64,000 nucleotides of DNA, taken from the NCBI GenBank assembly GCA_035500505.1, contig DATJXE010000003.1, positions 70,921 to 134,920 of the forward strand, in the 5' to 3' direction. The translations under genes were made by a program, and so were the position numbers. The notes below the pieces were generated by a model. The model was not told the origin of the DNA and did not search any database. It saw nothing but the letters and a program-made list of their open reading frames with translations. Source of the stretch: Minisyncoccota bacterium. Lineage in GTDB: Bacteria; Patescibacteriota; Minisyncoccia; Phycocordibacterales; UBA2100. Positions 8,387 through 63,029 of the stretch are shown here, one piece after another; the first letter of the stretch is position 1; every line of letters starts with the position of its first letter.

Positions 8387-9811
8387 CTACTCCTTACGCG
8401 GAAAAAGATTCGCCGGTTTTTTGTTCGCCATGATCGCTTCGATTATTTTCCCGCTCGTTTGCGGAATGATGGGCTCGAGCATTTCATCGATGAACGCAAG
8501 TTCCCGGACCATCGTTTCGATAAGCGCTTTGCCTTTCGCGGGGTCGGTTTTCACGACCTTGAACGGTTCGCTATGGTTGATGCTCTGATCGAGCGCTTGG
8601 ATCTTGCCCCACACGAATTCGAGAGCCCCATTGAATTCGAAACGCTCCAGTGCCTGCCTGAATTCGTTGGGGTACGGAACGAACTCGACCTTGACCGGTT
8701 CGGGAAGATTCGCTTCCGCAAGTGTCATAACGCGCGCCGCCAAATTGCCCAACCCATTCGCAAGGTCCGCGTTGTACGCCTCCTTGAACCGCTCCATCGT
8801 AAAATCAGAGTCTTCAAAAGGCGAGACATGCCGCGCGAGGAAGTAGCGCAGCGCATCGGCGCCGTATTCGTCCACAACAGCGATGGGGTCTATGACGTTG
8901 CCAATACTTTTCGACATTTTCTGCCCGCCACTCGTGATGAAGCCGTGGTAAAGCACCTTATCGGTCGTCTTGAGGCCGGCCGACATGAGCATCGCTTGCC
9001 ACATGACCGACTGGAACCGCACTTGATCCTTGCCCGCAAGCTGCAACGTTTCGCCGTCCACCCAGAATTTCTTGAAATCACCATTCTCATCCGGCCAGCC
9101 AAGCGTCGAGATGTAATTGATGAGCGCGTCGAACCACACGTACATGACCTGGGAATCGTCGTTCGGCACCGGTATGCCCCACGGCAGCCTGTCCTTTTGT
9201 CGTGAAATGGAAAAATCTTCGAGTCCGCCTTTCACAAAATTCAGCGCTTCCTGACGCCGCCATTCGGGAACGATGACGCCTTCTTGTGAGAGGTACGTTT
9301 CCAACTCTTTCTGGTATTTGCTCAAGGCGAAAAAATAATTCTCCTCCTCTATCTCTATCGGCTTCTGGCTAGGATGATTGGGGCACATACCGCCGACGAG
9401 GTCGCTTTCTTTGACGAACGCTTCATCGCCGACGCAGTAGAGACCCTTGTACTTCTTCTTGTAAATGTCTTTTTCGCACCGCTTCCAGAACTCCTGTGCC
9501 GCTTTCTTGTGACGAGAATCGGTCGTGCGGATGAAATGCAGGTCGGGAAAGAGCTCCAGCCTTTCCTTGAGCGAACGGAATTTCGCCGCGTACTCGTCGG
9601 TGTATTTCTGCGGGTCCTTCCCTTCCTCCTGCGCCTTGCGGAATATCTTGAGTCCGTGTTCATCGGTGCCTGTGTTGAAAAAAACATCGTTGCCCATCAA
9701 CTTGCGGTAGCGCGCGATGATATCCGCTTGCACCATTTCGAGCGCGAAGCCGATGTGCGGCTCTGCGTTGACGTACGGGAGGGTGGTAGTGAGATAAAAA
9801 GCCTTGCTCAT
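8387..9811 (-). CDS. metG: Methionyl-tRNA synthetase, short form lacking C-terminal tRNA-binding domain
   Basis: HIGF (HIGH-class) and KMSKS motifs; 474 aa. Confidence 0.9.
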   Translation of the reverse strand: MSKAFYLTTTLPYVNAEPHIGFALEMVQADIIARYRKLMGNDVFFNTGTDEHGLKIFRKAQEEGKDPQKYTDEYAAKFRSLKERLELFPDLHFIRTTDSRHKKAAQEFWKRCEKDIYKKKYKGLYCVGDEAFVKESDLVGGMCPNHPSQKPIEIEEENYFFALSKYQKELETYLSQEGVIVPEWRRQEALNFVKGGLEDFSISRQKDRLPWGIPVPNDDSQVMYVWFDALINYISTLGWPDENGDFKKFWVDGETLQLAGKDQVRFQSVMWQAMLMSAGLKTTDKVLYHGFITSGGQKMSKSIGNVIDPIAVVDEYGADALRYFLARHVSPFEDSDFTMERFKEAYNADLANGLGNLAARVMTLAEANLPEPVKVEFVPYPNEFRQALERFEFNGALEFVWGKIQALDQSINHSEPFKVVKTDPAKGKALIETMVRELAFIDEMLEPIIPQTSGKIIEAIMANKKPANLFPRKE

Positions 9812-10881
9812 GTCTTTTCGCTCTCTTCCTCGTGGTGCGCCAAGCGCCCGGTCTCAATGTCGCGCACGAGTTCCTGGATGGTCGCCGCGGCCGGTACCGA
9901 AAGGATGATGCCGAGGAACCCGGCGAGCTCGCCTCCGATGATGAGCGCGAGAATGACGAGCAAGGGCGGCACGCCGACAACGCGGGAGACGACGAGCGGA
10001 TAGATGAGCTGGCTCTCGAACTGCTGCGCGATGACATAGAGACCGACCGTGAGCAGCCCGAGCGTTGGGCCGCCGGAAACGAACGCGATCATGACCGCAG
10101 GGGCGGCGGCCATGATGGGCCCGAAAACGGGAATTATTTCGAAACATGCCGCGATAACGGCGAGGACGAGCGCGTTGGGCACGCCCAGAATGGTGAGTCC
10201 GAGGTAGACGAGGATGCCCATGATGACCGCGAGGAGAAGCTGGCCTTGCATCCAGAGCCCTATTTTGTGCTGCGACCGGCGCCAGAGGCCCTGCACGTAC
10301 CGTTGGTGCCGGTGCGGCGTCACGATCCGCAAAAAGTCGTCTACGCCGGTCTCGATGACCGCAAAGTAGAACGAGAACACGACGATGAGCACGAATGAGA
10401 ACACCCCGCCGAATATCGCGGTCGCCGCAGAAAGCGCGTTTCCGAAGAACGCGTCGAGGTTGAGCGCGCTCCTGATGCCGCTCAAGAGCGAGTCGGCCGA
10501 GAGCATCGTCGGTTGCGGAATTCCCAACAATTGGGCGTATTGGTCGAAAGCGCCGAAATGCGTGAACGTGTCGAAGTACCCCGGAAGAGCGACGAGGAAC
10601 GTGGCGAGGTCAGAGAGCAACGTCGGAACGAAAAAGTAGAAGAAGACGAATGCCGCTCCCGCGAAGCACAGGTAGACGAAGATAACGGCAATGACGCGCG
10701 GGACCCTTCGCTTCACGAGTCCGGTGACCCCCGGCTCGACCGCGGATGCGATGACGATGGCGGTGAGAACGATGAGAACGATGTCCCGTATGTCGAAGAG
10801 AAGCCATGCGAGCGCGAGAACGACGAGCGTTTTGACGACCGTTCCGGAGGTGATGGAGATGTTGACGTGGCGGTCTTCCAT
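9808..10881 (-). CDS. AI-2E family (PerM/UPF0118) membrane transporter
   Basis: Multi-TM protein with AI-2E family architecture; start set at internal Met to avoid overlap with glyQS. Confidence 0.7.
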   Translation of the reverse strand: MEDRHVNISITSGTVVKTLVVLALAWLLFDIRDIVLIVLTAIVIASAVEPGVTGLVKRRVPRVIAVIFVYLCFAGAAFVFFYFFVPTLLSDLATFLVALPGYFDTFTHFGAFDQYAQLLGIPQPTMLSADSLLSGIRSALNLDAFFGNALSAATAIFGGVFSFVLIVVFSFYFAVIETGVDDFLRIVTPHRHQRYVQGLWRRSQHKIGLWMQGQLLLAVIMGILVYLGLTILGVPNALVLAVIAACFEIIPVFGPIMAAAPAVMIAFVSGGPTLGLLTVGLYVIAQQFESQLIYPLVVSRVVGVPPLLVILALIIGGELAGFLGIILSVPAAATIQELVRDIETGRLAHHEEESEKT

Positions 10882-10915
10882 GGCTGCATCGTAGCACAAC
10901 GCTACCTTCTGACCA

Positions 10916-12124
10916 TCAGCCGAGGCGCGAGGAAAGTTCCGAAATGGCCACTCGCTCTTGCTCACCGGAGTCGCGGTCGCGGATGGTGACGGTGTCGTTC
11001 TCGAGCGTCTGAAAATCTATCGTGATGCACGAGGGGGTGCCGATCTCGTCCTGCCTGCGGTAGCGCTTGCCGATGTTGCCGTTGTCGTCCCACATGATGC
11101 GCGGCTCCGTTTTCTTGAGTGCGGCGTACACCTCGCGGGCTTTTTTGACGAGTTCCGGCTTGTTCTTGAGGAGCGGAAAAACAGCAGCTTTGATGGGCGC
11201 GACCTCCTTGTTGAATTTCAGATAGGTCCGGGGTTCGCCGCCGAGCTCGTCCTCCGTATACGCGGACGCGAGTATCGCAAGCACGGTGCGGTCGACCCCG
11301 AACGAGGGTTCGATGACGTGCGGAACGAACCGTTCGCCCGATCCTTCGTCGAGGTACGAAAGGTCCTGCCCCGATGCCTGCGCGTGCGCCGAAAGATCAA
11401 AATCGCCCCGGTATGCGAGGCCGGAAAGTTCTTTGCGACCGAACGGAAAGTCAAATTCGAAATCGATGGTCCGTTTCGAGTAATGTGCGCGGTCTTTGTC
11501 CGGCACGTCGAGTTCGTGAATGAGGTCCGGAGCGATACCGACACGCTCGAAGAAGCCCCACGTCTCTTTGCGCCAAAGTTCGAAGGCCGTCTCCCACTCT
11601 TCCGGTCGCACGAAGTATTCGACCTCCATTTGCTCCATCTCCCGAACGCGAAAAATAAAATCCCGTGGAGATATCTCGTTCCTGAACGCCTTGCCGATCT
11701 GCGCGATGCCAAAGGGAAGCTTCGGGTGGAACGCGTCGACGGTATTCTTGAAATTGAGGAAAATGCCCCCCGCGGTTTCCGGCCGCAAGTACGCCTCAGT
11801 CGCTTCCTCGGCCGCTCCCACGCTCGTTTTGAACATCGTATTGAACAGTTTGCCGGTCGCGAGCGGGTCGGCGAAACCGGCTACGTGCCCGCTCGCTTTC
11901 CACGCTTCAGGGTTCAGAATAATCGCGGAATCGAGGCCACAGACGTCCTCGCGGCCGTGAACGAACATCCGCCACCAAAGCTGTTTGACATTATTTTTCA
12001 GCTCGACGCCCAAGGCCCCGTAATCCCAAAAGCCGGCGAATCCCCCGTAGATCTCCGACCCCGGAAAAATGAAACCTCGCCGTTTCGCGAGGGATACTAT
12101 TTTTTCCATCAATTCATCGGCCAT
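10916..12124 (-). CDS. glyQS: Glycyl-tRNA synthetase, alpha2 dimeric type, compact
   Basis: Class II motifs; N-terminus FPGSEIYGGFAGFWDYG; TACACT box 7 nt upstream of ATG. Confidence 0.9.
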   Translation of the reverse strand: MADELMEKIVSLAKRRGFIFPGSEIYGGFAGFWDYGALGVELKNNVKQLWWRMFVHGREDVCGLDSAIILNPEAWKASGHVAGFADPLATGKLFNTMFKTSVGAAEEATEAYLRPETAGGIFLNFKNTVDAFHPKLPFGIAQIGKAFRNEISPRDFIFRVREMEQMEVEYFVRPEEWETAFELWRKETWGFFERVGIAPDLIHELDVPDKDRAHYSKRTIDFEFDFPFGRKELSGLAYRGDFDLSAHAQASGQDLSYLDEGSGERFVPHVIEPSFGVDRTVLAILASAYTEDELGGEPRTYLKFNKEVAPIKAAVFPLLKNKPELVKKAREVYAALKKTEPRIMWDDNGNIGKRYRRQDEIGTPSCITIDFQTLENDTVTIRDRDSGEQERVAISELSSRLG

Positions 12125-14185: not shown

Positions 14186-15982
14186 TCACCGCCCTTTCCC
14201 CTTTGATTTCCGTACGTAGAGAAGCTCTTCGGGCAAACGGAAGAGTCCTTCGTCGTTCTTTTTCTGCTCCATGAAGTGCGCGATGAAGCCGACCGAGCGC
14301 GGGATGACGAAAAGCGCGTTGAAAAATTCGCATGCGGCAAGCTCGCGCAACTCTTCCGGAGAAAGTTTCTCGCACTCGGCGAGGATGTCGAGCGCAAGCG
14401 CGGCGATGACGCCGTCGACGTTGAGGATCAGATTGCCGCTTTTCTTGGTGGTTACCGCCTCTATCTCACGTGCGAAATCATAATGCGGATGCTCCTTGAG
14501 GAGTCCTGCGAACTGCGAAATGGCCGCGACGCGCGGGTCGGGGATGCCGACGCGATACTTGCGGTGCCCGATGCCCGCGAGCAACTTCCCGCCCTTGGTG
14601 CGCGCTTCGACGAAGTGTGTCGCAGCATCATCTTGTACGACGCCGGAGAGCCACTGTTCGGCGGCTGCATTGACCGCGCCGCCGAAACGAGGGCCGATCG
14701 TGAGGAGCCCGGCGGAGAGCGAAGAAACGAGATCTTTGCCCGCGCGCGCCGAGATCATCGTGTTGACCGCGCCGGAGACTTCGCCGCCATGGTCGATAAG
14801 CAATTGCAGAACGGCTTCGGCGAATGCGGCCGTTACGTCGGATCGCAACTTCTTGTCGAGCAAAGCCTCGAAGGCTGCTGCCGCGAAACCGCGCTTCTGC
14901 GGGATCAGTTTCTTGTTTTTGACGAACGTCGGCACCGCGTCAAGGTCCACGACCTCGCGTGTCGAAAGGACACTCGGGCGGCGGTTCTTCATCGAGTCCA
15001 TTGTCAAAACGGTAGCATGAAATGTCTCCCCCGGCAGCTTTTTGAGCTCCGCAAGGAATTCAGGGAATGTATCCGGCGCGATCGCGCCAGCCTTGCGGAG
15101 TGCGTCCCGTTTCGCTCGTGCGCTTTCGTCCTGGCGCGCAACGAGTGCTTTCGCGTGCCCGAACTGCATGTGCTCGTCGAACGCCTCATCGATTATGCCG
15201 GCGATATAGGCCACGACCGGTTTCGTGAGCTTCTTTTTTTCGAGCAGCCCCACGATCTCGTACTCATCAACGCCGCCAAGTTCCCCAAAATACACGACCG
15301 CGTTCGTTTTCGGGTCATGCTGCGCAAGCAGCAAGACGTCGGTGAGTGACGTGATCGGAAAACGGTCGCCGCCGATGCACATTGCGAACGAAAGATCCTT
15401 CCGCGCGCCCGCGACCGCGCGGATAAGCTCGTTGGTCATGCCGCCCGACGTCGAGACGACGGCGACGGAACCTTCAGTCGTGAGGTTGCCCGCTTCGATC
15501 TGGGCGATGTCGGTACCGCCGATCGCACCCAGCTTGAGGTGTCCAGCAACGAGCAATCCCACACCCGAGGGCCCTGCAATGAGTTTGTCGTTACCGAATC
15601 GGCGAAGAAGCTCGGTCGCATGTCGTTCGGGAATGTTTTCTGCGAACAGATGTCCGCCGAGCGCATTCGGGAACCTTTCGAAGAAGGCGATGCTCGAATC
15701 GAACGCGCGCCTGCCCGATCGCACGTTCAGCATCCAAGAGATCCTGCCATGAAAAGACCGAGGAATAGGGCCAATATCCGGGAAGCATGGAAGAAGCAGC
15801 TCGGACGGTCCGAAAAAGAATTTCTGCGCCTTACGGGCGCCGCCCACTATCGCAACGACCGATGGTCCTTTTTTGCCGCTCAGAAAATCGAAATCGAGTA
15901 TGGATTGCACGATGCCGGGATGGTTGCCGACCACGAGAATTCCCGTCGTCCCTTTTCGGACTAATTCGAGGACATTTTTCAT
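14186..15982 (-). CDS. aclA: ATP-citrate lyase large subunit-like (CoA-binding / CoA-ligase domains fused to citrate-synthase-like domain)
   Basis: SucD-like N-terminus with phosphohistidine loop QFGHAKA; C-terminal citrate-synthase motif IGHRKYRVGIPDPR. Confidence 0.7.
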   Translation of the reverse strand: MKNVLELVRKGTTGILVVGNHPGIVQSILDFDFLSGKKGPSVVAIVGGARKAQKFFFGPSELLLPCFPDIGPIPRSFHGRISWMLNVRSGRRAFDSSIAFFERFPNALGGHLFAENIPERHATELLRRFGNDKLIAGPSGVGLLVAGHLKLGAIGGTDIAQIEAGNLTTEGSVAVVSTSGGMTNELIRAVAGARKDLSFAMCIGGDRFPITSLTDVLLLAQHDPKTNAVVYFGELGGVDEYEIVGLLEKKKLTKPVVAYIAGIIDEAFDEHMQFGHAKALVARQDESARAKRDALRKAGAIAPDTFPEFLAELKKLPGETFHATVLTMDSMKNRRPSVLSTREVVDLDAVPTFVKNKKLIPQKRGFAAAAFEALLDKKLRSDVTAAFAEAVLQLLIDHGGEVSGAVNTMISARAGKDLVSSLSAGLLTIGPRFGGAVNAAAEQWLSGVVQDDAATHFVEARTKGGKLLAGIGHRKYRVGIPDPRVAAISQFAGLLKEHPHYDFAREIEAVTTKKSGNLILNVDGVIAALALDILAECEKLSPEELRELAACEFFNALFVIPRSVGFIAHFMEQKKNDEGLFRLPEELLYVRKSKGKGR

Positions 15983-17136
15983 ACGCCAGTGAAAGCGATC
16001 GCGTCTTCGACCGCTTTCGTAATGACGGTTTCCGAACCGTGGATGGAACCGAACAATTTCTCGCGCTCCAAAAACTCCTGCATAAGTTCCAGTCCCGCTT
16101 TTTCGTTCGGTCCGCCGCGCCGCACGAACACTTTTATTTTTTGTGCGCGAAGTTTCGGTGCGTATTCAGAAAGCGCGTCGATGATGCCGGTGAATGTTTT
16201 TTTCACGTCGGTGAAATTGGCGACGCCCCCGGCGATGACCAGCGCTTTCTTTTTCGCCTTGGATGCGAGCATGAGCTCGATGACCTCTTTCGCATAGAGA
16301 TAGGTCTCTTCGCGCGACGGTCCGCCACTGTATTCGCCATAGTTCCCTATGAACTTCCCCGCCCCTTCGAGCGCGGCTTCGTCGGCTATCACGATAGAAC
16401 CCCCGCCGCCGGAAAGTAAGAAGAAGAGCGCACCATTTTTATTGACGACGGAAAGCTTGAGCGACGCGGGCGTCGTTTTGGCGATCGCTTCGACGCGCGC
16501 TTCGGCCGGATGTTCCGAACCGGTCGTTACGATATCGTCTTCGCCCCACGAGTCGGTAAAGAAAGCTCCAGCGCTGTCGACAAGACACGCTGCGTCCAAC
16601 AGATACGTTTTACCCTTCTGAATAACGAGTGGATTTATCTCAAGGAACGCGAAAAAGTTCTTGTTGAACGTTCCGACGAGATGCTGCAAAAATCCCTCCG
16701 AGATTTTTGCAGCGTTCGCCACTTTCTTCACATCCGCATCAGTTGCAACAATGTACGTTTTCACCTTCTCCGGGTGCGCCTCGATGTCGATCCCGCCCTC
16801 GCCCGCGTGCAGTATCCGTATCCCTTCGCGCACGCGCTCGAGCGAAAGGTATTGTTCTTCGCTTGCTTCGTGCGGCACGAGTGGCTCGAGCAAGAATTGT
16901 GAGAAGCCTTTTTTCTTCCACTCCGCTATCTTTTTCAATGCCTGCGAGGGCGTTACGCCGACCGCAACAAGTCCTTGTTTAAAGCGCTTTTTTATACCTT
17001 GGTCGACCTTGACGACGAGAGTCCCCTTCGAAGCTTTAGCGGAGTAGGACTGCCCCGCATGAACAAAAATTCCTTTATATGCATCTCCAAGCAATATCTT
17101 TTTCGCGCGATACTCGCTGATCTTTACGCGAGCCAT
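15979..17136 (-). CDS. aclB: ATP-citrate lyase small subunit-like (SucC-like ATP-grasp)
   Basis: ISEYRAKKIL N-terminus, ATP-grasp fold; 4-nt overlap with aclA. Confidence 0.65.
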   Translation of the reverse strand: MARVKISEYRAKKILLGDAYKGIFVHAGQSYSAKASKGTLVVKVDQGIKKRFKQGLVAVGVTPSQALKKIAEWKKKGFSQFLLEPLVPHEASEEQYLSLERVREGIRILHAGEGGIDIEAHPEKVKTYIVATDADVKKVANAAKISEGFLQHLVGTFNKNFFAFLEINPLVIQKGKTYLLDAACLVDSAGAFFTDSWGEDDIVTTGSEHPAEARVEAIAKTTPASLKLSVVNKNGALFFLLSGGGGSIVIADEAALEGAGKFIGNYGEYSGGPSREETYLYAKEVIELMLASKAKKKALVIAGGVANFTDVKKTFTGIIDALSEYAPKLRAQKIKVFVRRGGPNEKAGLELMQEFLEREKLFGSIHGSETVITKAVEDAIAFTGV

Positions 17137-26555: not shown

Positions 26556-26882
26556 CTATTGTGTTGAACCGCTCGAAGGGGTCGCGCCGGGGATGCCGAA
26601 TGTCGGACCGGATGCGGCCGGAGCTTGCGTTGTCGTTGGAGCCGCGTTCGACGTGGGTTGCTGCGTTACCTGAATGCCGCTCGACGTGCTCCCCTGCGCA
26701 CCGACAACTCTCGCGAGGGCGGCGGTGAATGCTTCATCGAACGCGCCGAGGTAGGCTGCGATGAAAAGAGAGATGAGTGCGACAAGCGTCGTGTAGATGA
26801 CCGTCTGGCGCTGCGTGGGCCAGGCGACGTGGTTGAGCTCGCTCCTCGTGTCCTTGAAGTATTGAATGATGGGGTTGGCCAT
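26556..26882 (-). CDS. secE: Preprotein translocase subunit SecE
   Basis: Single C-terminal TM helix; canonical secE-nusG-rplK order; AGGAG SD 7 nt upstream. Confidence 0.8.
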   Translation of the reverse strand: MANPIIQYFKDTRSELNHVAWPTQRQTVIYTTLVALISLFIAAYLGAFDEAFTAALARVVGAQGSTSSGIQVTQQPTSNAAPTTTQAPAASGPTFGIPGATPSSGSTQ

Positions 26883-26891
26883 AGTTCTCCT

Positions 26892-26913
26892 AAGTTAAAA
26901 CCCCCGGCGGGGG
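26892..26913 (-). terminator. Short GC hairpin (CCCCC-GCC-GGGGG) plus U-run between hairpin element E1 and secE
   Basis: On minus strand CCCCCGCCGGGGG followed by TTTTAACTT; may also lie at the 5' end of the secE transcript. Confidence 0.4.
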
Positions 26914-26923
26914 TTATGGAAGC

Positions 26924-26951
26924 ATCATATTCTTCCTAAAATCTAAGTCAA
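26924..26951 (-). promoter_or_regulatory. Candidate sigma70 promoter for secE-nusG-rplK: TTGACT, 16 nt spacer, TATGAT
   Basis: Minus-strand TTGACT at 26951-26946 and TATGAT at 26929-26924; the -35 hexamer abuts the end of hairpin element E1. Confidence 0.5.
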
Positions 26952-27086
26952 GCGGACGGGAACGAAACCCGTTTTTTGTTGCACATCTAGGGAACAGCTT
27001 TACCATTCTCTGTGCCGGACCCTCGCAAAAGAATTCTCAGCATACATAACAGAGGGGAAACAAAAACGGGTTTCGTTCCCGTCCGC
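26952..27086. repeat. Hairpin element E1: 28-bp terminal inverted repeat (25 bp perfect) around a 77-bp conserved core
   Basis: Left arm gcggacgggaacgaaacccgtttttt and right arm aaaaacgggtttcgttcccgtccgc are exact reverse complements; core shares an ATGTAT motif and a gagggtccggcRcagagaatg block with E2. Confidence 0.75.
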
Positions 27087-27089
27087 TAT

Positions 27090-27938
27090 CTATCTGATCT
27101 CGTAGGTCAGCGTCACGTCGTCCGTAATGGTGTTCTGGCCGGTCTGGATCTCGGGCGCCGGTGCGGCAAGATCTTTGGTCGAAGCGCCGCTCGCGTACAT
27201 GACCGGATAAATACCCTGGTTGTTGTTCTCGTTGAAGCCAACCACGCCGACGAGCTGCACGCCGAGCGATTTGGCGAGGTTCTGCGCCTTGCCTTGCGCC
27301 TGCGCGATAGCCTTGTCGCGCGCTTGAGCTTGAAGTGTATCCTCATCCGAAACCGTGAATGAAAGTCCGCTCACGCTGGAGGCTCCCTTGGAGCCAACTC
27401 CGGAGAGGAGTGCACCGGCCTTGGTCGTGTCCTTCACTTTTACCGTGAGCGTCTCCGAAACCTGGTAGCCCGTGAGCGTTTGTTTCCCAGGCGGGCAGTA
27501 GATGCCCGAGCTCGCCGCGCCCGAGTCCGTGCTGTACACAACAGGTTGCGGACACACCGACTGACTATAGGAATACTGCGGGGTAATCTCGTAGTCGGTC
27601 GTTTGAATATCGGTGTCGGCGATTCCTTGGCTCTTTAGGTAATCGGTTATCGTGTTGCCGTCGTTGGTCGCTTTGGTCTGCGCGGTCTGCACGTCCGCCG
27701 CAGTATCCTGGACGGTCACGCTGAACGTGGCCGTATCGGGCACCGCGAACACCTTGCCCTCGCCGCTCACCTGAATGGTGTTAGTCGGAGAAATGCCCGT
27801 GCCGATGTAGTGGTAGCTCTTGAGTGCGCTCACGGTGAGCACGAGAAGAAAGAGTGCGAGCATGCCGAGCGCGGTCGCGGCCATGAGGCGCGGCCAGTGC
27901 GTCGCGGCGATTATTTTGTCGACAGCTCCTTCTTCCAT
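27090..27938 (-). CDS. SIMPL-domain (DUF541, BP26/OMP28-like) periplasmic protein
   Basis: N-terminal TM anchor and SIMPL-like repeats; ATG at 27938 preferred over the TTG at 27944; TGATATACT box 9 nt upstream. Confidence 0.7.
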   Translation of the reverse strand: MEEGAVDKIIAATHWPRLMAATALGMLALFLLVLTVSALKSYHYIGTGISPTNTIQVSGEGKVFAVPDTATFSVTVQDTAADVQTAQTKATNDGNTITDYLKSQGIADTDIQTTDYEITPQYSYSQSVCPQPVVYSTDSGAASSGIYCPPGKQTLTGYQVSETLTVKVKDTTKAGALLSGVGSKGASSVSGLSFTVSDEDTLQAQARDKAIAQAQGKAQNLAKSLGVQLVGVVGFNENNNQGIYPVMYASGASTKDLAAPAPEIQTGQNTITDDVTLTYEIR

Positions 27939-27951
27939 GGTCAACAGTATA

Positions 27952-28155
27952 TCATTGAATATTGCCGATGGTAGCGTAGGTGTTGATGAGACTCGGTATC
28001 TCGAACAGAAGTCCGATCAAAGGGACAACGAACAGGATGACGGACACGATAACGGTCCAGAGAATGATGCGATACAGCCTGCGCGCCATCGCGTATACCT
28101 CGGCCATCTGTTGCTCCATACGCTCCAGCCGCTGCTTCGTCTCCTCGTCCATCAT
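27952..28155 (-). CDS. 67-aa small membrane protein
   Basis: Amphipathic N-terminus plus one TM helix; TAAACT-like box 5 nt upstream; no SD. Confidence 0.45.
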   Translation of the reverse strand: MMDEETKQRLERMEQQMAEVYAMARRLYRIILWTVIVSVILFVVPLIGLLFEIPSLINTYATIGNIQ

Positions 28156-28166
28156 GGGTAGTTTAA

Positions 28167-28302
28167 CACGAGAAAGGCTGGTGCTCTGTTTTGTTTTCCG
28201 TCCCGATGTATGTTGGTAGTTACCTCGTGAGGGTCCGGCGCAGAGAATGATTACAGCTGTAGCTTAGACGTTCAACAAAACAGAGCACCAGCCTTTCTCG
28301 TG
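28167..28302. repeat. Hairpin element E2: perfect 29-bp terminal inverted repeat around a 78-bp core, inverted relative to E1
   Basis: cacgagaaaggctggtgctctgttttgtt ... aacaaaacagagcaccagcctttctcgtg; core is ~70-75 percent identical to the reverse complement of the E1 core. Confidence 0.75.
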
Positions 28303-28308
28303 CACATC

Positions 28309-28788
28309 TTACGTTCGATGCGGCCATTTCTTATACTCGTGCCAGACAAGCCAGAACATGCCGATGTCGAAGAACGTGAGCAGTATGAGCGGGATCGAAC
28401 CGGTCACCGAAATGCGGATTATCTGAAAGAGAATGAACAACCCCAGGAACGCCATTGCCGCCGGATACGCCCACGTGTAGTTGCGCCAGAGCGACACCGA
28501 GAGGAACGTCTTCACGAGCCCGTGCGCGATCAAATAAAGACCGCCCAGAACGAATGCTTCGTGTGATTGCGACGCGAGCGCGCGCAGGTGTGTGGCGAAG
28601 AAGCTGTCCGGGTCCTCAACGATCTCGTTGCGGGTAAGGAAAAAGGCCGCGCTGGCCAGCGTGGTGGTGAAGGGCGTAAACGTGAGAAGGGCGCCGAGTG
28701 CGACCTCGAGAACCCCATCAAGACCTTTGATAACGACGGTGAGGAGGAAGGCGTCATGAATGCGCTTTTCCTTGAAGTTCGAAGGCAT
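28309..28788 (-). CDS. Membrane protein, 4-5 TM helices, unknown function
   Basis: Hydrophobic helices; start at internal Met adjacent to the upstream gene's stop. Confidence 0.55.
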   Translation of the reverse strand: MPSNFKEKRIHDAFLLTVVIKGLDGVLEVALGALLTFTPFTTTLASAAFFLTRNEIVEDPDSFFATHLRALASQSHEAFVLGGLYLIAHGLVKTFLSVSLWRNYTWAYPAAMAFLGLFILFQIIRISVTGSIPLILLTFFDIGMFWLVWHEYKKWPHRT

Positions 28789-28789
28789 A

Positions 28790-29485
28790 TCAGGGCAGAG
28801 GAACCGGGTCGGCATGGAACACCGCGAACGATTTCGGGAACCACTTTACGCAGAGGACGTAGATGGTGTAGGTGATGAAATACGCCGAAGCGACGTCTAT
28901 CGAATAGTGGTAATGTCCGACGAGAACGACGGCGGACATGTACAGCGACCACGCGAGAAATACATAGCGAAGAACTTTATCGCGCCAGAAAATGAGCGCC
29001 ATCAAAAAGCACACGCCGACGTGCCCCGAAAAGAACAGGTCGCCTCCGAAAAGAAAGTGCCCTATCAAAACGCCCCAATCGCCGTTGGGCGGCATAGACG
29101 GGAATGGCGCCAAGTGCGTGAGCGACGTGAAAGCGGAGCGGATGAAGTAGAACGTCCCGAGGGCAAACACCGTAAAAGGGACGCGTTTGGGATGCGCAAG
29201 AAGGAGGAGCGTGATGAACGCGACGAGGAGGAGCGTGCCATAGGCGAAAAGAGCGTCTACGTCGAACGCGCGAACATTAGAAAGCACGATGTCAGTCACC
29301 GAATTGCTCGCACTTTCGGTCGCGTAGTTGATGGCGTAAAAGGAAACGACCACGCTCGCCGCGAAATACAGGAGGGACAGGAGAACGGACATGCGGAATT
29401 CGCTTCGTGAATAATGCGTTCGATACCGGCGCATAAGTTCCCGATGCGGGGCACTGTGACGGTGAAGCGCGGTTTCGGAGGCCAT
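28790..29485 (-). CDS. PAP2-superfamily membrane phosphatase/transferase (PAP2_C-like)
   Basis: SGH and H-x3-D motifs (SGHVGVCF, GHYHYSIDV) in a multi-TM protein. Confidence 0.6.
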   Translation of the reverse strand: MASETALHRHSAPHRELMRRYRTHYSRSEFRMSVLLSLLYFAASVVVSFYAINYATESASNSVTDIVLSNVRAFDVDALFAYGTLLLVAFITLLLLAHPKRVPFTVFALGTFYFIRSAFTSLTHLAPFPSMPPNGDWGVLIGHFLFGGDLFFSGHVGVCFLMALIFWRDKVLRYVFLAWSLYMSAVVLVGHYHYSIDVASAYFITYTIYVLCVKWFPKSFAVFHADPVPLP

Positions 29486-36680: not shown

Positions 36681-36837
36681 TGTGCGCAGGGGGAGACTCG
36701 GTCACGCGTCGTTTTCTGCTGAAAACGCGCGCGGCCCCGACTCGCGCCGTCGCGCTCCGTCTTTCGAGTCTCTGCTCCCAACGCAAAACGTGTCCGCAAG
36801 GGACACGTTTTGCGTTGGGTGCGCAGGGGGAGACTCG
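36681..36837. repeat. 19-nt exact direct repeat (gtgcgcagggggagactcg) at 36681-36699 and 36819-36837; second copy is the 3' end of tRNA-Leu
   Basis: A duplicated tRNA 3' end is the classic signature of site-specific integration into a tRNA gene; only 119 bp lie between the copies. Confidence 0.6.
36777..36819. other. Perfect 19-bp hairpin with GCAAG loop, abutting the tRNA-Leu 3' end
   Basis: cccaacgcaaaacgtgtcc-gcaag-ggacacgttttgcgttggg; the last three nucleotides are the tRNA's 3' CCC. Confidence 0.6.
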
Positions 36838-36903
36838 AACTCCCATGCCCTTGCGGGCGCTACCACCTCAAGGTAGTACGTCTACCAATTTCGCCACCTG
36901 CGC
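36817..36903 (-). tRNA. tRNA-Leu (anticodon GAG), long variable arm
   Basis: GCGCAGGTGGCGAAATTGGTAGACG... closely resembles E. coli tRNA-Leu; anticodon loop TTGAGGT; T-loop TTCGAGT. Confidence 0.85.
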
Positions 36904-47910: not shown

Positions 47911-48515
47911 AGCGCTCCCATCAAATATACGATGGTAAATATGAATATCCATACGATGTCGAGAAAGTGCCAAAAAAGGCTAAACAGAGCCAATTTTCGC
48001 ATATTGCCCCTCGAGAATCCGCGCTTGAGGATGGCGATCGTGAGCGAGAGCAGCCACAGGAGGCCAACGGCGACGTGAAGCCCGTGCGTGCCGACCAGCG
48101 TGAAGTACGCCGAGAGGAATCCGCTGTGCGAGGGACCGTATCCTTGCGCGACGAGGCGCGTGAACTCCGAAACTTCCATCCCGACGAATGCCGCTCCGAG
48201 AACGAATGTCGTCGAAAGCAACAGAATCGCCGCTTGCACTTTGTCAGCGCGCGCGGCAAGGAGCGCGAGGCCGCAGGTGAAACTGCTCGTAAGGAGTGCG
48301 ATCGTTTCGATGAGCACGTACGGCAAGTTGAAGATGTTGCCCATCGAGGACCCTCCGAATGCGGGGCCGCGCAAGACGGCGAACACGGCGAACAGGCTCG
48401 CGAAGAGCACCAAGTCGGTCATGAGGTACGCCCAGAATCCGAAAACGGCGGTAGAATCCGCCGCGCGTTCTTCGGGAGAAAGGGTGTCGCTCGCGTGGGC
48501 TTGGGTTTCCATCAT
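47907..48515 (-). CDS. cyoC: Cytochrome bo3 ubiquinol oxidase subunit III
   Basis: Five-TM COX3 fold. Confidence 0.85.
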   Translation of the reverse strand: MMETQAHASDTLSPEERAADSTAVFGFWAYLMTDLVLFASLFAVFAVLRGPAFGGSSMGNIFNLPYVLIETIALLTSSFTCGLALLAARADKVQAAILLLSTTFVLGAAFVGMEVSEFTRLVAQGYGPSHSGFLSAYFTLVGTHGLHVAVGLLWLLSLTIAILKRGFSRGNMRKLALFSLFWHFLDIVWIFIFTIVYLMGAL

Positions 48516-50497
48516 ACGGTTATCGCTTCGTCTCGTCGCAATCCGGCCTCACGGTGCACGATCTCGGACGCGGTGACGACATATTCCGCGTCCTCGTCGA
48601 ACGTGCGCGCGAGCGCGGTCACGATAGCGCCGAGCGCGCCGAATATCACGAGCCACCAGATGTGCCAGACCGCGCCGAACCCGAACGCGAAGACGAACGT
48701 TGCAATGATGAGCCCTGCAGCACTCTCTTTGGGCATATGGAAGTCTTCCGCCTGCATGTCGTGGTGTATCTTCGTGTGTTTGTATGCCCAAAACTGATCG
48801 CGCGCATGGACGAGCGGAAGTGCCGCGAAATTGTACGCGGGCGGGGGCGAAGCGACCGACCACTCGAGCGTGCGGCCGCGCCACGGATCGCTGCCGACCT
48901 TGTTTGCGTGCCGCTTCCTGATGCTCGCGATGAGCTGCGCGACCTGGCAACAAAAACCGAGTGCTATCAGAACGGCGCCGACTCCCGCAACCGCAAAAAG
49001 CGGCTGCCAGCCCAGCGCGGCGGAATAATGGTCGAGCCGCCTCGTCGCGCCCTCGAGACCAAGGAGGTAGAGCGGGCCGAACGCAAGGATGAATCCGGTG
49101 AGCCACAACCAGAACGCGCGCCTTCCCCACTTTTCATCGAACGTAAAGCCGAAGAATTTCGGGAACCAGTACGTGAGTCCCGCAAAGTAGCCGAAAAGCA
49201 CGCCGGAAACTATCATCGTGTGAAAGTGCGCGACGAGAAAGAGCGAGTTGTGCAATTCGTAGTCGGCCGGTGGTTCCGCCATGACGACGCCCGCGACCCC
49301 ACCCAGCGTGAAGAGCACGACGAACCCGATGAACCACAGCATCGGTGTGGTGAAGCGGATGCGTCCACGGTACATCGTGAAGAGCCAGTTGAATATCTTG
49401 ACGCCCGTCGGCACCGCGATGACCGCCGTCATGATGCCGAAGAACGCGTTCACATCCGCCTCCGCGCCCATCGTGAAAAAGTGGTGCAGCCATACGATGA
49501 ACGACAGCACAACAATGGCCCAAATGGAGAGCACCATCGACGTGTACCCGGCAAGTTTCTTGCTCGAAAAAACGGGCACGATCTCGGAAAACACCCCGAA
49601 CGCCGGCAAAATGAGGATGTAGACCTCCGGATGTCCCCACGCCCATATCAAATTGACGTACATCATCATGTTGCCGCCTCCGCCTGCGGTGAAAAAATGC
49701 ATGCCCGCGGTGCGGTCGAGCCACAAAAGCGCGAGGGTCACAGTGAGGATCGGGAACGCGAACACGACGAGCGACATCGAACCGAGCGTCGTCCAGGTGA
49801 ACATCGGAAGGCGCATCCAGGTCATGCCCTTCGCGCGCTTCTTCACGATGGTCGCGATGAAATTCACCCCCGAGAGGAGGCTTCCCAAGCCCCCGATCTG
49901 CAGTCCCCATATCCAATAATCAACCCCAACGGTCGGCGAATATTGAAGTTCCGAAAGCGGCGGATACGCGAGCCAGCCTGCGGTCGAGAAGTCGCCCAAC
50001 AAAAGCGAACAGTTGATGAGCGCCGCACCGGCAAAAAAGAGCCAGAAGCTCAAGGAATTCAAGAATGGGAACGCAACGTCGCGCGTCCCTATCTGGAGTG
50101 GCACAACGAGGTTGATGAGCCCGAACATGAGTCCCATCGCGACGAAAAAGATCATGATAGAACCGTGCGCGGAGAATATTTGTTGGAAATGGTTCGCGCT
50201 CACGATGCCGAACGAATCGCCCACCGAGGTCGCCTGCTGCGCGCGAAGGAGGAGCGCGTCGACGCCGCCGCGCACGAGCATGATGCCCGCGACCGTGATG
50301 TACATGATGCCGATCTTTTTTGGGTCGAGCGATGTAAACCACTCCTTCCACAGCCATCGCCATGAACCGGAGAAGGTGACGAAGGCGAGTACGGCCAGTA
50401 TGCAGGCCACCATATAGATGGCGCCGCCCCACGCGATCGGATTCTGCGGGAGAACCGACCACGAAAGCTTGCCGAATATGAGTTCCTGCCAGTTCAT
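48512..50497 (-). CDS. cyoB: Cytochrome bo3 ubiquinol oxidase subunit I (heme-copper oxidase)
   Basis: 661 aa with conserved His ligands and the WAHHMF region. Confidence 0.9.
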   Translation of the reverse strand: MNWQELIFGKLSWSVLPQNPIAWGGAIYMVACILAVLAFVTFSGSWRWLWKEWFTSLDPKKIGIMYITVAGIMLVRGGVDALLLRAQQATSVGDSFGIVSANHFQQIFSAHGSIMIFFVAMGLMFGLINLVVPLQIGTRDVAFPFLNSLSFWLFFAGAALINCSLLLGDFSTAGWLAYPPLSELQYSPTVGVDYWIWGLQIGGLGSLLSGVNFIATIVKKRAKGMTWMRLPMFTWTTLGSMSLVVFAFPILTVTLALLWLDRTAGMHFFTAGGGGNMMMYVNLIWAWGHPEVYILILPAFGVFSEIVPVFSSKKLAGYTSMVLSIWAIVVLSFIVWLHHFFTMGAEADVNAFFGIMTAVIAVPTGVKIFNWLFTMYRGRIRFTTPMLWFIGFVVLFTLGGVAGVVMAEPPADYELHNSLFLVAHFHTMIVSGVLFGYFAGLTYWFPKFFGFTFDEKWGRRAFWLWLTGFILAFGPLYLLGLEGATRRLDHYSAALGWQPLFAVAGVGAVLIALGFCCQVAQLIASIRKRHANKVGSDPWRGRTLEWSVASPPPAYNFAALPLVHARDQFWAYKHTKIHHDMQAEDFHMPKESAAGLIIATFVFAFGFGAVWHIWWLVIFGALGAIVTALARTFDEDAEYVVTASEIVHREAGLRRDEAITV

Positions 50498-51423: not shown

Positions 51424-51484
51424 TCTCTCAAGTGTAGCACCGCGAAATCGGGCGCGGCGCGATGCGAAACGCCAAGGCAAGACC

Positions 51485-62889: not shown

Positions 62890-63029
62890 GGGCGGGGGAA
62901 CCGAGGGCTGTTTTTTCGAACTCCGTACTCATCTCGGCTCCGATGTATATCACCATTGCGGAAATACCCCGGGGAACTTGAACGTGTCGCGCGCAATGTT
63001 CGCTAAAACAGCCCTCGGTTCCCCCGCCC
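62890..63029. repeat. Hairpin element E3: perfect 25-bp terminal inverted repeat around a 90-bp core, diverged member of the E1/E2 family
   Basis: gggcgggggaaccgagggctgtttt ... aaaacagccctcggttcccccgccc; core carries ccgATGTAT and ends gttcgct before the aaaaca arm, as in E2. Confidence 0.65.

What the first reader, a model, noticed from the sequence alone, without database searches (positions are those of the whole stretch)
26952..28302. Two related hairpin elements with copy-specific perfect arms bracket a SIMPL-gene cassette next to secE
E1 (26952-27086) and E2 (28167-28302) each have a flawless 25-29 bp terminal inverted repeat. The arm sequences differ completely between the two copies except for an inner gttttgtt/aacaaaac end. 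Their ~78-bp cores are ~70-75 percent identical, sharing an ATGTAT motif, gagggtccggcRcagagaatg, acagct and catacat blocks, and lie in opposite orientation. Each copy starts 3-6 nt after a stop codon, and E1 ends 1 nt before a near-consensus secE promoter. Together they delimit a 1.2-kb unit made of a 67-aa membrane protein gene and the SIMPL/DUF541 gene. Classical MITEs and Correia-like elements share terminal inverted repeats between copies, and integron attC sites conserve their outer ends rather than their centre. This is the opposite pattern: a conserved core closed by variable but perfect stems. That fits either a structured RNA with a covarying closing helix or a DNA-level foldback mechanism. 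Possible roles are terminator or insulator modules, RNase III targets, or cassette boundaries.
Basis: seen in the sequence. Interest (0 to 1): 0.8.

Follow-up and report, generated by a model that had tools for sequence, protein, structure and literature searches.

The report
Palindromic hairpin insertions beside secE
Two ~137-bp DNA palindromes that share a middle section but have unrelated, flawless stems were inserted just after two stop codons in one lineage of a tiny (Paceibacterota/CPR) bacterium; they are not gene-cassette borders but belong to a little-known kind of hairpin element whose stems change between copies while staying perfectly paired.

Summary
E1 (26951-27087) has 26-bp perfect arms and E2 (28167-28302) has 29-bp perfect arms. 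Their loops are 74% identical in inverted orientation, and their outer arms are unrelated. Both lie 2-6 nt after a stop codon. The cassette reading fails. PAP2-DUF2127-small TM protein-SIMPL-SecE-NusG is conserved synteny in five related Paceibacterota lineages. The E1 site is empty in all five. The E2 site is empty in four and holds an unrelated hairpin in the fifth. E1 and E2 are therefore lineage-specific insertions into an ancestral operon. No Rfam family, transposase, integrase, target duplication or further copy was found in the window or in the viral, genome and metagenome scans. Same-architecture hairpins occur in the window (E3) and in relatives. One second family sits in-frame in the PIF1 helicase linker of about a third of 121 homologues. 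There the core is conserved at nucleotide level across reading frames and both orientations, while the arms differ and co-vary. About 175 arm pairs contain no G-U pair or mismatch, and decayed copies are absent. This favours DNA-level maintenance by template switching or recombination between the arms over RNA covariation. The likely effect is a strong 3'-end hairpin or insulator. Mechanism and function remain inferred.

The parts
26951..27087 (.). E1: palindromic hairpin element. Arms 26951-26976 and 27062-27087, loop 26977-27061. Sits between the SIMPL stop codon and the secE -35 hexamer.
   Evidence: 26/26 Watson-Crick pairs; z -8.2/-7.3 on the two strands; the blastn alignment to relatives breaks exactly at 27097|26952
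28167..28302 (.). E2: palindromic hairpin element. Arms 28167-28195 and 28274-28302, loop 28196-28273. Sits between the DUF2127 stop codon and the start of the 67-aa gene. Its loop is inverted relative to E1.
   Evidence: 29/29 Watson-Crick pairs; site empty in L005, L008, L003 and the P0003 contig
27004..27024 (-). Most conserved block of the shared core in E1 (GAGGGTCCGGCACAGAGAATG).
28229..28249 (+). Most conserved block of the shared core in E2 (GAGGGTCCGGCGCAGAGAATG).
62890..63029 (.). E3: third hairpin of the same architecture (25-bp perfect arms ending in CTGTTTT / AAAACAG, loop about 90 nt). Lies between the convergent LTD-domain and DsbA-like genes, 7 nt from each stop codon. Loop not significantly related to E1/E2.
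26924..26951 (-). secE promoter TTGACT-16-TATGAT, abutting E1. In relatives the same promoter follows the SIMPL stop codon directly.
27090..27944 (-). SIMPL/DUF541 gene. Ancestral, not cargo.
   Evidence: PF04402, 4.8e-51; conserved synteny
27952..28155 (-). 67-aa membrane protein gene. Apparently leaderless, with an extended -10 (TGTTAAACT) starting at the last bases of E2.
   Evidence: homologous 66-70-aa genes at the same place in L005, L008, L034; the promoter reading is inference from sequence
28309..28815 (-). DUF2127 membrane protein gene, upstream neighbour of E2.
26556..26882 (-). secE, downstream neighbour of E1.

Best explanation
E1 and E2 are two diverged copies of a small, non-coding, non-autonomous palindromic insertion. 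Each entered the only neutral slot of two very short intergenic regions, between a stop codon and the next promoter, in the lineage of this Paceibacterota genome.

They belong to a class of long-stem, large-loop hairpin elements found in this clade. In this class the loop (core) with a short A/T-rich inner inverted repeat (GTTTTGTT...AACAAAAC) is the inherited unit. The long outer arms are secondary and copy-specific.

The arms are made and kept perfectly complementary at the DNA level. One arm is re-copied from the other by replication template switching (quasi-palindrome correction and inverted-repeat expansion) and/or by recombination between the arms. That recombination can also flip the loop.

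Once present, the element places a 26-29-bp hairpin at the 3' end of the upstream mRNA. In E1 each arm is also a small intrinsic terminator facing outward. The element would thus act as a terminator, 3'-end stabiliser, RNase III site or insulator between SIMPL and the secE promoter, and between DUF2127 and the 67-aa gene.

Shown: insertion status, architecture, absence of mobile-element hallmarks, and the core/arm behaviour in a second family. Inferred: the template-switch or recombination mechanism, and any RNA-level role.
For: 1. Insertion status. Synteny is conserved, the E1 site is empty in all five relative lineages, and the E2 site is empty in four. The SIMPL stop is followed directly by CTTGAC(T) in L003 and L005. 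The DUF2127-to-next-gene gap is 12-56 nt in L005 and L008.

2. Arm age. If the arms had decayed at the rate seen in the loops (26% between copies), about 6-7 pairs per element would be hit. P(all pairs intact) = 6.5e-4 for E1 and 2.8e-4 for E2. The arms are therefore renewed or actively maintained.

3. Arm chemistry. No G-U pair and no mismatch occurs in about 175 arm pairs of 7 elements: E1, E2, E3, X8, X25, X4, X33. No degenerate big-loop hairpins occur in about 200 kb, and none in shuffles. Imperfections lie only at the loop-proximal end. This fits outward growth of the arms and repeated re-copying.

4. Independent family with the same rule. X4 (L004) and X33 (L033) sit at the same point of the PIF1 linker. 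Their loops are 91.5% identical while the hosts are 74% identical in protein. The arms are unrelated, and the core is read in different frames.

5. Spread of that family. About 34-38 of 121 PIF1 homologues carry it, in two frames and, in P0270 and P0316, inverted. Arms compatible with reverse complementarity over at least 21 nt were found in 17 proteins, against 1 of 113 shuffled controls. They show compensatory changes such as T..V to A..A.

6. Published mechanism. Template switching creates perfect stems in one event and maintains them (PMC8794818). It also expands inverted-repeat arms (PMC13100816, abstract).

7. Terminator-like arms. The E1 arms are flagged as terminator-like on both strands. 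The X25 arm contains CCGCA-GCCTG-TGCGG followed by TTTT.
Against: - No direct evidence for template switching or arm recombination here. There are no close strains (the nearest relative is about 78% nt identical), no reads, and no filled-versus-empty pair at high identity.
- The arms are not copies of the present-day flanks, nor of anything else in the window or loci. The source of the first arm is therefore unexplained.
- In X4 the net insertion (about 60 nt) exceeds one arm. Template switching alone cannot create the elements; something delivers the loop.
- Under neutral conversion the arms should not evolve faster than the loops. The loops must therefore be constrained, or the arms must turn over by replacement. 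Neither is shown.
- Only two copies of the E core are known, and the rest of the 366-kb source contig could not be read.
- How the core was copied from one site to the other is unknown. The two copies are 1.2 kb apart and inverted. That also fits a single local inverted duplication.
Confidence: 0.5

Rival explanations
1. True mobile element of a new type. The loop is the recognition module of an unknown trans-acting enzyme, and the insertion mechanism itself generates a fresh perfect inverted repeat at each new site. The element has no conserved terminal inverted repeat and no target-site duplication, and it can re-enter the same sites in different lineages.
For: - The core is conserved while the arms are unrelated, both for E1/E2 and for X4/X33.
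- The PIF1 element is very patchy: about 22 presence/absence changes on a 121-taxon tree, with different frames and orientations inside one clade.
- Its core is far better conserved (91.5%) than the host gene.
- Sites recur: the DUF2127 3' end is occupied by E2 and by the unrelated X25.
- The boundary between conserved and copy-specific sequence is abrupt.
Against: - No transposase, integrase, reverse transcriptase or HUH gene was found among about 45 of the larger ORFs scanned across the window or in the Pfam tables of the related loci.
- No further copy of the E core exists in the window, the loci, one-per-species genomes, JGI metagenome contigs or viral contigs.
- Within sub-clades the PIF1 arms look homologous and change by compensatory steps. 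That points to vertical descent rather than re-insertion.
Confidence: 0.17
2. Invertible DNA switches (invertons). The arms are the inverted repeats of a flip-flop segment. The E core carries a weak outward promoter, TTGCAC-16-TACCAT in E1(+) and TTGAAC-17-AATCAT in E2(-). Its orientation would switch expression of the 67-aa/SIMPL genes or of secE. The PIF1 element would be an intragenic inverton that recodes the linker.
For: - E1 and E2 loops lie in opposite orientation.
- The PIF1 core occurs in both orientations, in frame, with the arm-encoded peptides unchanged.
- Intragenic invertons are documented (PMC10028968).
- Frequent flipping by recombination would homogenise the arms.
- RecA and RecO are encoded in the window.
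Against: - The promoter-like hexamers score only 7-8 of 12 and were not reported by the scan.
- A 78-85-bp segment is very short for inversion.
- No invertase gene was found nearby.
- The arms of invertons served by one recombinase normally share a motif; here only an A/T-run is shared.
- Orientation differences are seen only between lineages or copies, not within a population.
Confidence: 0.12
3. Functional RNA elements. Either each is a structured RNA with a covarying closing helix, or the two loops are complementary on the same polycistronic transcript because they are inverted. In the second case they would pair loop-to-loop and bracket the 67-aa/SIMPL cistrons for processing or stability.
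For: - The 21-nt block gives 20 of 21 complementarity between the two loops on the minus-strand transcript.
- A 3-bp internal hairpin shows two compensatory changes and one G-U in the E1rc/E2(+) orientation.
- Only two copies exist, inverted and 1.2 kb apart in one operon. That is what a pairing partnership predicts.
- Long perfect stems are RNase III substrates (general knowledge).
Against: - No G-U pairs in 55 arm pairs.
- Both strands fold equally well.
- The consensus loop structure is weak (-7.0 and -2.7 kcal/mol).
- No Rfam match other than generic miRNA-precursor hairpins far below threshold.
- A run of 20 of 21 matches is not unusual at 74% overall identity (own estimate).
- E3, X8 and X25 have no partner within 10 kb.
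Confidence: 0.12
4. Cassette or recombination boundaries (attC-like or composite-transposon-like) that delimit a mobile 67-aa + SIMPL unit.
For: The two elements physically bracket the 1.2-kb unit in inverted orientation.
Against: - The same two genes sit in the same order between DUF2127 and secE in five other lineages that lack this bracketing pair. None has an E1-site hairpin, and only one has an unrelated E2-site hairpin.
- No integrase was found.
- The outer ends lack the attC R boxes and the stems have no extrahelical bases.
Confidence: 0.03

Closest known systems
Rickettsia palindromic elements (RPE) and similar in-frame palindromic selfish DNA (from my own knowledge; no paper on them retrieved)
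   Same: About 100-150-bp hairpin-forming insertions. They occur in intergenic regions and in frame inside protein-coding genes, are patchy among orthologues, encode no enzyme of their own, and show no obvious target duplication. The PIF1-linker family (X4/X33) behaves in this way.
   Different: RPE families are defined by a consensus that includes the stems. Here the stems are unrelated between copies and only the loop is conserved. No sequence relationship was tested or is expected, because the phylum is different.
MITEs such as Neisseria Correia elements (general knowledge; MITE review PMC10969869 listed)
   Same: Size, intergenic position next to promoters, and the potential to supply terminators, promoters and RNase III-cleavable hairpins in transcripts.
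   Different: MITEs share terminal inverted repeats between copies and make target-site duplications (TA for Correia elements). E1, E2 and E3 share no termini and have no duplication.
REP / REPIN elements mobilised by RAYT transposases (GTAG/CGTC-tagged palindromes, PMC3733652 listed)
   Same: Extragenic palindromes placed after stop codons. A REPIN is two inverted REPs around a spacer that form a long hairpin. Each E1 arm is itself a small hairpin.
   Different: REP sequences are conserved within a genome and the spacer is the variable part, which is the reverse of E1/E2. No GTAG/CGTC tag is evident at the arm ends of E1-E3, read by eye. No Y1-transposase gene was seen.
Template-switch (quasi-palindrome) generated and maintained hairpins (PMC8794818; inverted-repeat expansion PMC13100816; de novo miRNA hairpins PMC10710096)
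   Same: Perfect reverse-complement arms created in one step, multibase compensatory change, arm expansion and homogenisation, and no need for an enzyme specific to the element.
   Different: Described events copy 10-30 nt next to existing sequence. They do not deliver an 80-nt loop to a new site, and they do not explain a loop that is better conserved than its host gene.
Invertons, including intragenic invertons (PMC10028968)
   Same: Inverted repeats flanking a short segment that is found in both orientations. The intragenic case keeps the reading frame open in both orientations.
   Different: Invertons are flipped by dedicated recombinases acting on conserved inverted-repeat motifs, and they are usually longer. 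No recombinase was found, no within-population flipping was shown, and the arms are not conserved.
Integron attC sites
   Same: Imperfectly conserved palindromes directly after the stop codon of a gene, recognised by structure rather than sequence, and of similar size range.
   Different: attC sites conserve the outer R''/R' boxes (RYYYAAC/GTTRRRY), carry extrahelical bases, and occur in arrays with an integrase. E1 and E2 conserve the centre, are perfect duplexes, and flank ancestral genes.

Membership tests
MITE (classical, IS-derived) | Terminal inverted repeats shared between copies of a family | tested here: not met
   Outer arms of E1 and E2 match at 3 of 17 positions. Only the inner 8-9 bp are shared.
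MITE (classical, IS-derived) | Target-site duplication flanking the element | tested here: not met
   No direct repeat flanks E1, E2, E3, X8 or X25. Comparison with the empty sites shows none.
MITE (classical, IS-derived) | Multiple dispersed copies, with a related autonomous IS in the genome | tested here: inconclusive
   Two copies in 64 kb. No transposase among about 45 of the larger ORFs scanned.
REP/REPIN | Conserved REP palindrome (GTAG/CGTC-tagged) repeated in the genome, with a RAYT gene | tested here: not met
   Arm sequences are unique in the window and loci. No PF01797-type protein was seen.
Integron attC | R''/R' core sites (RYYYAAC...GTTRRRY) at the outer ends, with extrahelical bases in the stem | tested here: not met
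   Outer ends are AGCGGAC.../CACGAGA.... The stems are perfect duplexes without bulges.
Integron attC | Delimits mobile cassettes next to an integrase or in an attC array | tested here: not met
   The bracketed genes are syntenic in relatives that lack this hairpin pair. No integrase was found in the ORFs scanned.
Known RNA family (Rfam 15) | Covariance-model match at or above the gathering score | tested here: not met
   Only tRNAs pass in the window. E2 and E3 hit plant or animal miRNA-precursor models at 52 versus 180 bits and 22 versus 100 bits.
Structured RNA with covarying closing helix | Strand-specific fold, G-U intermediates in the stems, and a conserved structured core | tested here: not met
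   Equal z-scores on both strands. No G-U in 55 pairs. Weak consensus loop fold. With only two sequences the power is low.
Intrinsic (Rho-independent) terminator | G+C-rich stem followed directly by a U-tract | tested here: inconclusive
   The E1 arms each qualify on their own strand, and so does the X25 arm. The E2 and E3 arms do not, and the full hairpins are not followed by U-tracts.
Inverton | Inverted-repeat-flanked segment present in both orientations within a population, with a recombinase | not testable with these tools
   Both orientations are seen only between copies (E1 versus E2) and between lineages (PIF1 core in P0270 and P0316). No reads were available and no recombinase was found.
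RPE-like in-frame palindromic element | Hairpin-forming insertion translated in frame, with patchy presence among orthologues | tested here: met
   Met for the sister family X4/X33 in PIF1. E1, E2 and E3 themselves are intergenic.
Template-switch-maintained hairpin | Perfect reverse-complement arms, multibase compensatory change, and one arm templated on the other | tested here: inconclusive
   Perfection and paired changes are met. The templating event itself cannot be reconstructed without close relatives.

The most novel reading that the evidence does not exclude
Paceibacterota/Kaiserbacteria may harbour an undescribed kind of selfish or regulatory DNA hairpin. Its loop would be a conserved, sequence-specific module, preserved at nucleotide level irrespective of reading frame, orientation or host context. 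Its 20-31-bp arms would be generated anew and kept flawless by the propagation or maintenance mechanism. That would make it a mobile or invertible element with no conserved termini and no target duplication. It would be able to occupy the same sites repeatedly (PIF1 linker, DUF2127 3' end). E1 and E2 would be two members that now shape transcription around secE.
Probability: 0.2. Interest if true: 0.85.

Novelty: new variant of a known kind. Interest (0 to 1): 0.6.

Why it matters
If the pattern holds genome-wide, it describes small palindromic elements that reverse the usual rule: conserved middle, free but perfect stems. That gives a natural system in which DNA-level template switching or arm recombination visibly creates and polices long hairpins. 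The setting is ultra-small CPR genomes with minimal repair machinery.

It would bear on three questions. How do terminators, insulators and RNase III sites arise de novo in compact operons? How do perfect stems evolve without G-U intermediates? How can coding regions such as the PIF1 linker tolerate or exploit invertible palindromes?

Practically, the result also shows that bracketing repeats around a gene pair should not be read as cassette ends without checking synteny in relatives.

Tried and rejected
1. Known RNA. Rfam gathering and E-value scans of the window, the E1-E2 region, E3 and five related loci found nothing beyond tRNAs and sub-threshold miRNA-like hairpin hits.

2. More copies of the E core.
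- Motif search in the window with up to 3 mismatches found only the two copies.
- nhmmer and blastn against all loci found none.
- Exact-motif scans of genome, viral and metagenome collections gave only chance hits inside unrelated high-GC coding sequence.
- Phage and plasmid blastn gave no match.

3. Arms as guides or spacers against phages. The 20-mers of all three arms are absent from the viral contigs.

4. Arms or loops templated from nearby sequence. There were no significant matches in the window or the loci. The 16-nt similarity of the core to the 67-aa gene (D8) is at chance level (nhmmer E=26).

5. Insertion into pre-existing terminator hairpins. Empty sites have no hairpin, and ordinary terminators in this clade have 14-19-bp arms with the A-run and T-run on the outside, which is the opposite polarity.

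6. Mini-ORF starting at ATGTAT (14-15 aa). All differences are non-synonymous and there is no Shine-Dalgarno sequence, so it is not coding.

7. Retrieving the source contig beyond the window. NusG, FtsK, the DsbA-like protein and P0001 were all 'not on record'. That cost four look-ups.

8. Strain-level polymorphism in a groundwater population (L026-L032). The only length difference was a scaffold N-run.

9. E3 as a diverged member of the E family. Not supported statistically.

10. Assembly artefact. Unlikely: X8 is identical in two independent assemblies (L008 and L009), and the E core recurs at 74% identity.
Full report
**1. What is there**

The region was read directly.

- E1 spans 26951-27087. 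Its arms are 26951-26976 and 27062-27087, with 26 of 26 Watson-Crick pairs.
- E2 spans 28167-28302. Its arms are 28167-28195 and 28274-28302, with 29 of 29 pairs, extending to 36 nt at 92%.
- With E1 reverse-complemented, the loops plus the inner 9 bp of the stems align at 73.7% identity. Local alignment gives z=15 against shuffles.
- The outer arms match at 3 of 17 positions, which is random.
- The block GAGGGTCCGGCRCAGAGAATG occurs exactly twice in the window, against 0.01 expected.
- A score-based scan for hairpins with 25-140-nt loops finds three in the window and none in shuffles.
- The third is E3 (62890-63029), between two convergent genes and 7 nt from each stop codon. It has the same architecture and the same inner CTGTTTT/AAAACAG ends, but its loop is not significantly similar.
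- Both strands of E1 and E2 fold equally well, z = -7.3 to -9.4.

**2. Context**

All neighbouring genes are on the minus strand: DUF2127 (28309-28815), a 67-aa membrane protein (27952-28155), SIMPL/DUF541 (27090-27944), secE (26556-26882), then nusG and rplK.

E1 begins 2 nt after the SIMPL stop codon. Its last base is the first T of the only strong promoter in the region, TTGACT-16-TATGAT for secE. E2 begins 6 nt after the DUF2127 stop codon. It ends at what looks like an extended -10 (TGTTAAACT) just upstream of the 67-aa gene's ATG. That promoter reading is inference from sequence.

The organism is a Candidatus Paceibacterota MAG. The 100%-identical SIMPL and the PIF1 proteins are named so and lie on a 366,717-bp contig.

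**3. The cassette reading fails**

Orthologous loci were fetched from five related lineages. Their SIMPL identity to the window is 73-86%. The closest of them is about 78% identical at nucleotide level, the rest about 65-78%. All show the same order: PAP2 - DUF2127 - small TM protein - SIMPL - SecE - NusG - L11.

- In L003/L004 and L005 the SIMPL stop codon is followed directly by the secE -35 hexamer: TGA-A-CTTGACT and TAG-CTTGAC. The gap is only 70-76 nt.
- The blastn alignment of the window to L003 breaks exactly at 27097|26952.
- The E2 site is 12 nt long in L005, 31 nt in the P0003 contig and 56 nt in L008.

E1 and E2 are therefore insertions specific to the window's lineage, placed into an ancestral and vertically inherited operon.

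**4. What they are not**

- No Rfam family matches. The only hits are generic long-hairpin matches to miRNA-precursor models far below their gathering scores.
- There are no target-site duplications and no shared termini.
- No transposase, integrase, reverse transcriptase or Y1/HUH gene was found among about 45 of the larger ORFs scanned across the window. These are housekeeping genes such as FtsK, RecA, aminoacyl-tRNA synthetases, ATP-citrate lyase, haem-copper oxidase and RuvA.
- No further copy of the core was found in the window, in about 200 kb of related loci, in one-genome-per-species contigs, in JGI metagenome contigs, in viral contigs, or in phage and plasmid records. All exact 18-19-mer hits lie inside unrelated coding sequence and are expected by chance.
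- The arms are absent from viral contigs. They are not copies of anything nearby.
- The ATGTAT mini-ORF differs only by non-synonymous changes, so it is not coding.

**5. The same architecture elsewhere in the clade**

Big-loop, perfect-arm hairpins occur in relatives, and each is lineage-specific.

- X8 (L008/L009 1237-1356) has 31-bp arms and lies 2 nt after the DUF2914 stop codon. It is absent in L003, L005, L025 and the window.
- X25 (L025 9427-9547) has 24-bp arms and overlaps the DUF2127 stop codon. That is the same intergenic site as E2, but with an unrelated loop.
- X4 (L004 6721-6826) has 20-bp arms.
- X33 (L033 16560-16648) has 21-bp arms.

No decayed versions were found anywhere, and none appear in shuffles. 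In six of the seven elements the left arm ends in a T-run and the right arm starts with an A-run. Where a stem has imperfections, they lie at the loop-proximal end.

**6. A second family shows the same core/arm rule**

X4 and X33 lie at the same point of the PIF1 helicase gene, in the linker between FLRAIGA and ELREK, and they are translated in frame.

- Their loops are 91.5% identical over 47 nt, although the host proteins are only 74% identical.
- Their arms are unrelated.
- The shared core is read in different reading frames: ALRNSP... versus RPAELAS.... The conservation is therefore at nucleotide level.

Among 120 PIF1 homologues plus L033, about 34-38 carry the element:

- frame a, 'ALRNS...SPRSK', in at least 24;
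- frame b, in 8;
- the inverted core, 'DRGL(S)EP...FRRA', in P0270 and P0316. This matches the reverse-complement translation of X4.

A codon-level test for reverse-complement compatibility finds arms of at least 21 nt in 17 proteins, against 1 of 113 shuffled controls. In 14-15 of those the arms bracket the core exactly. The arms differ between lineages by paired changes, for example EPAGTADF...SKSAVPAGS versus EPAGAADF...SKSAAPAGS.

On a neighbour-joining tree, presence or absence changes about 22 times. One small clade contains frame a, frame b and the inverted form together. L004, which carries the element, is sister to the window, which lacks it.

**7. Inference on mechanism**

If the E1 and E2 arms had decayed at the rate seen in the loops, 6-7 pairs per element would be disrupted. 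The probability that all pairs are intact is 6.5e-4 for E1 and 2.8e-4 for E2. The arms are thus either much younger than the split of the two cores or actively maintained.

Several observations argue against RNA-level compensatory evolution and for a DNA-level process in which one arm is copied from the other:

- about 175 arm pairs in seven elements contain no G-U pair;
- the two strands are equivalent;
- the loop occurs in both orientations relative to the host gene;
- the imperfections sit at the inner end of the stem.

Replication template switching is documented to create perfect stems in one event, to fix mismatches as multibase compensatory changes (PMC8794818), and to expand and homogenise inverted-repeat arms (PMC13100816). 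Recombination between the arms would additionally flip the loop. RecA and RecO are encoded in the window.

This does not explain how the loop reaches a new site. In X4 the net insertion is about 60 nt, more than one arm, and the E1 site had no room for a pre-existing loop. A delivery step remains unknown. E1 and E2 are inverted and only 1.2 kb apart, so a single local inverted duplication of the core is as plausible as transposition.

**8. Likely effect**

Each element puts a very stable 26-29-bp hairpin directly after a stop codon. In E1 each arm on its own is a small stem followed by a T-run, facing incoming transcription from either side. The X25 arm looks the same. The E2 and E3 arms do not.

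Plausible effects are a role as terminator, 3'-exonuclease barrier, RNase III site or insulator between SIMPL and the secE promoter. None of these is tested. The promoter-like hexamers inside the core are weak, 7-8 of 12, and were not reported by the scan.

**9. Verdict**

The cassette interpretation is refuted. The structured-RNA reading is not supported.

The best reading is a lineage-specific palindromic insertion of a class closest to RPE-, MITE- and REPIN-like elements. It differs from them in having a conserved loop and free but flawless arms, maintained at DNA level.

The class appears undescribed for these bacteria in the literature I could search. Evidence for E1/E2 themselves rests on two copies in one assembly. 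I rate it a new variant of a known kind, with interest 0.6.

Noticed in passing
L004 6721-6826; L033 16560-16648; proteins P0241-P0360: A hairpin element is inserted in frame in the linker of PIF1 helicase in about a third of 121 Kaiserbacteria/Paceibacterota homologues. The same nucleotide core is read in two frames and, in P0270 and P0316, inverted. The arms are lineage-specific and co-vary. It is a candidate intragenic invertible or selfish palindrome.
   Followed up: partly
window 62890-63029: E3 is a third long-stem, large-loop hairpin (25 bp perfect, 32 nt at 94%). It lies between convergent LTD-domain and DsbA-like genes, 7 nt from each stop codon. Its loop is unrelated to E1/E2.
   Followed up: partly
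window 26898-26915 (minus strand); L003 about 10893-10915; L005 about 10871-10893; L008 about 11032-11054; L025 about 11053-11074: A small G+C hairpin followed by TTTTAA (AACCCCCGCCGGGGGTTTTAA) sits between the secE promoter and the secE start codon. It is conserved in every relative examined. It may be a leader or attenuator of the secE-nusG operon.
   Followed up: no
L025 9427-9547 and L008 9745-9772: The DUF2127 3' end, which is the E2 site, is repeatedly occupied by different palindromes in different lineages. L025 has a 24-bp-arm, 73-nt-loop hairpin. L008 has a 14-bp loop-less palindrome. L003 has a tandem GATTGAGATGA repeat (9510-9550).
   Followed up: partly
window 28150-28170 (minus strand); L005 9762-9776; L008 9770-9787; L025 9548-9568: The small membrane-protein gene downstream of DUF2127 appears leaderless. 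An extended -10 (TGnTAnACT) lies 4-7 nt before the ATG. In L005 it overlaps the stop codon of the upstream gene.
   Followed up: no
window 36818-36903: ARAGORN calls a tRNA-Leu(GAG) here that the Rfam gathering scan did not list. It is followed by a 22-bp-arm palindrome (36774-36822) that is conserved in L003.
   Followed up: partly
window 48512-51480 and 14186-17136: This Paceibacterota genome encodes haem-copper oxidase subunits I and II (COX1 at 2.5e-143) and an ATP-citrate-lyase-like pair. This is an unusually rich energy metabolism for a CPR bacterium.
   Followed up: no
L008 10880-11000: The enlarged SIMPL-secE spacer of L008 (217 nt) and that of L025 (231 nt) hold extra small hairpins. 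In L008 there are also three direct copies of (A/G)CCTTTTCG. These may be remnants of another insertion or a binding-site array.
   Followed up: no
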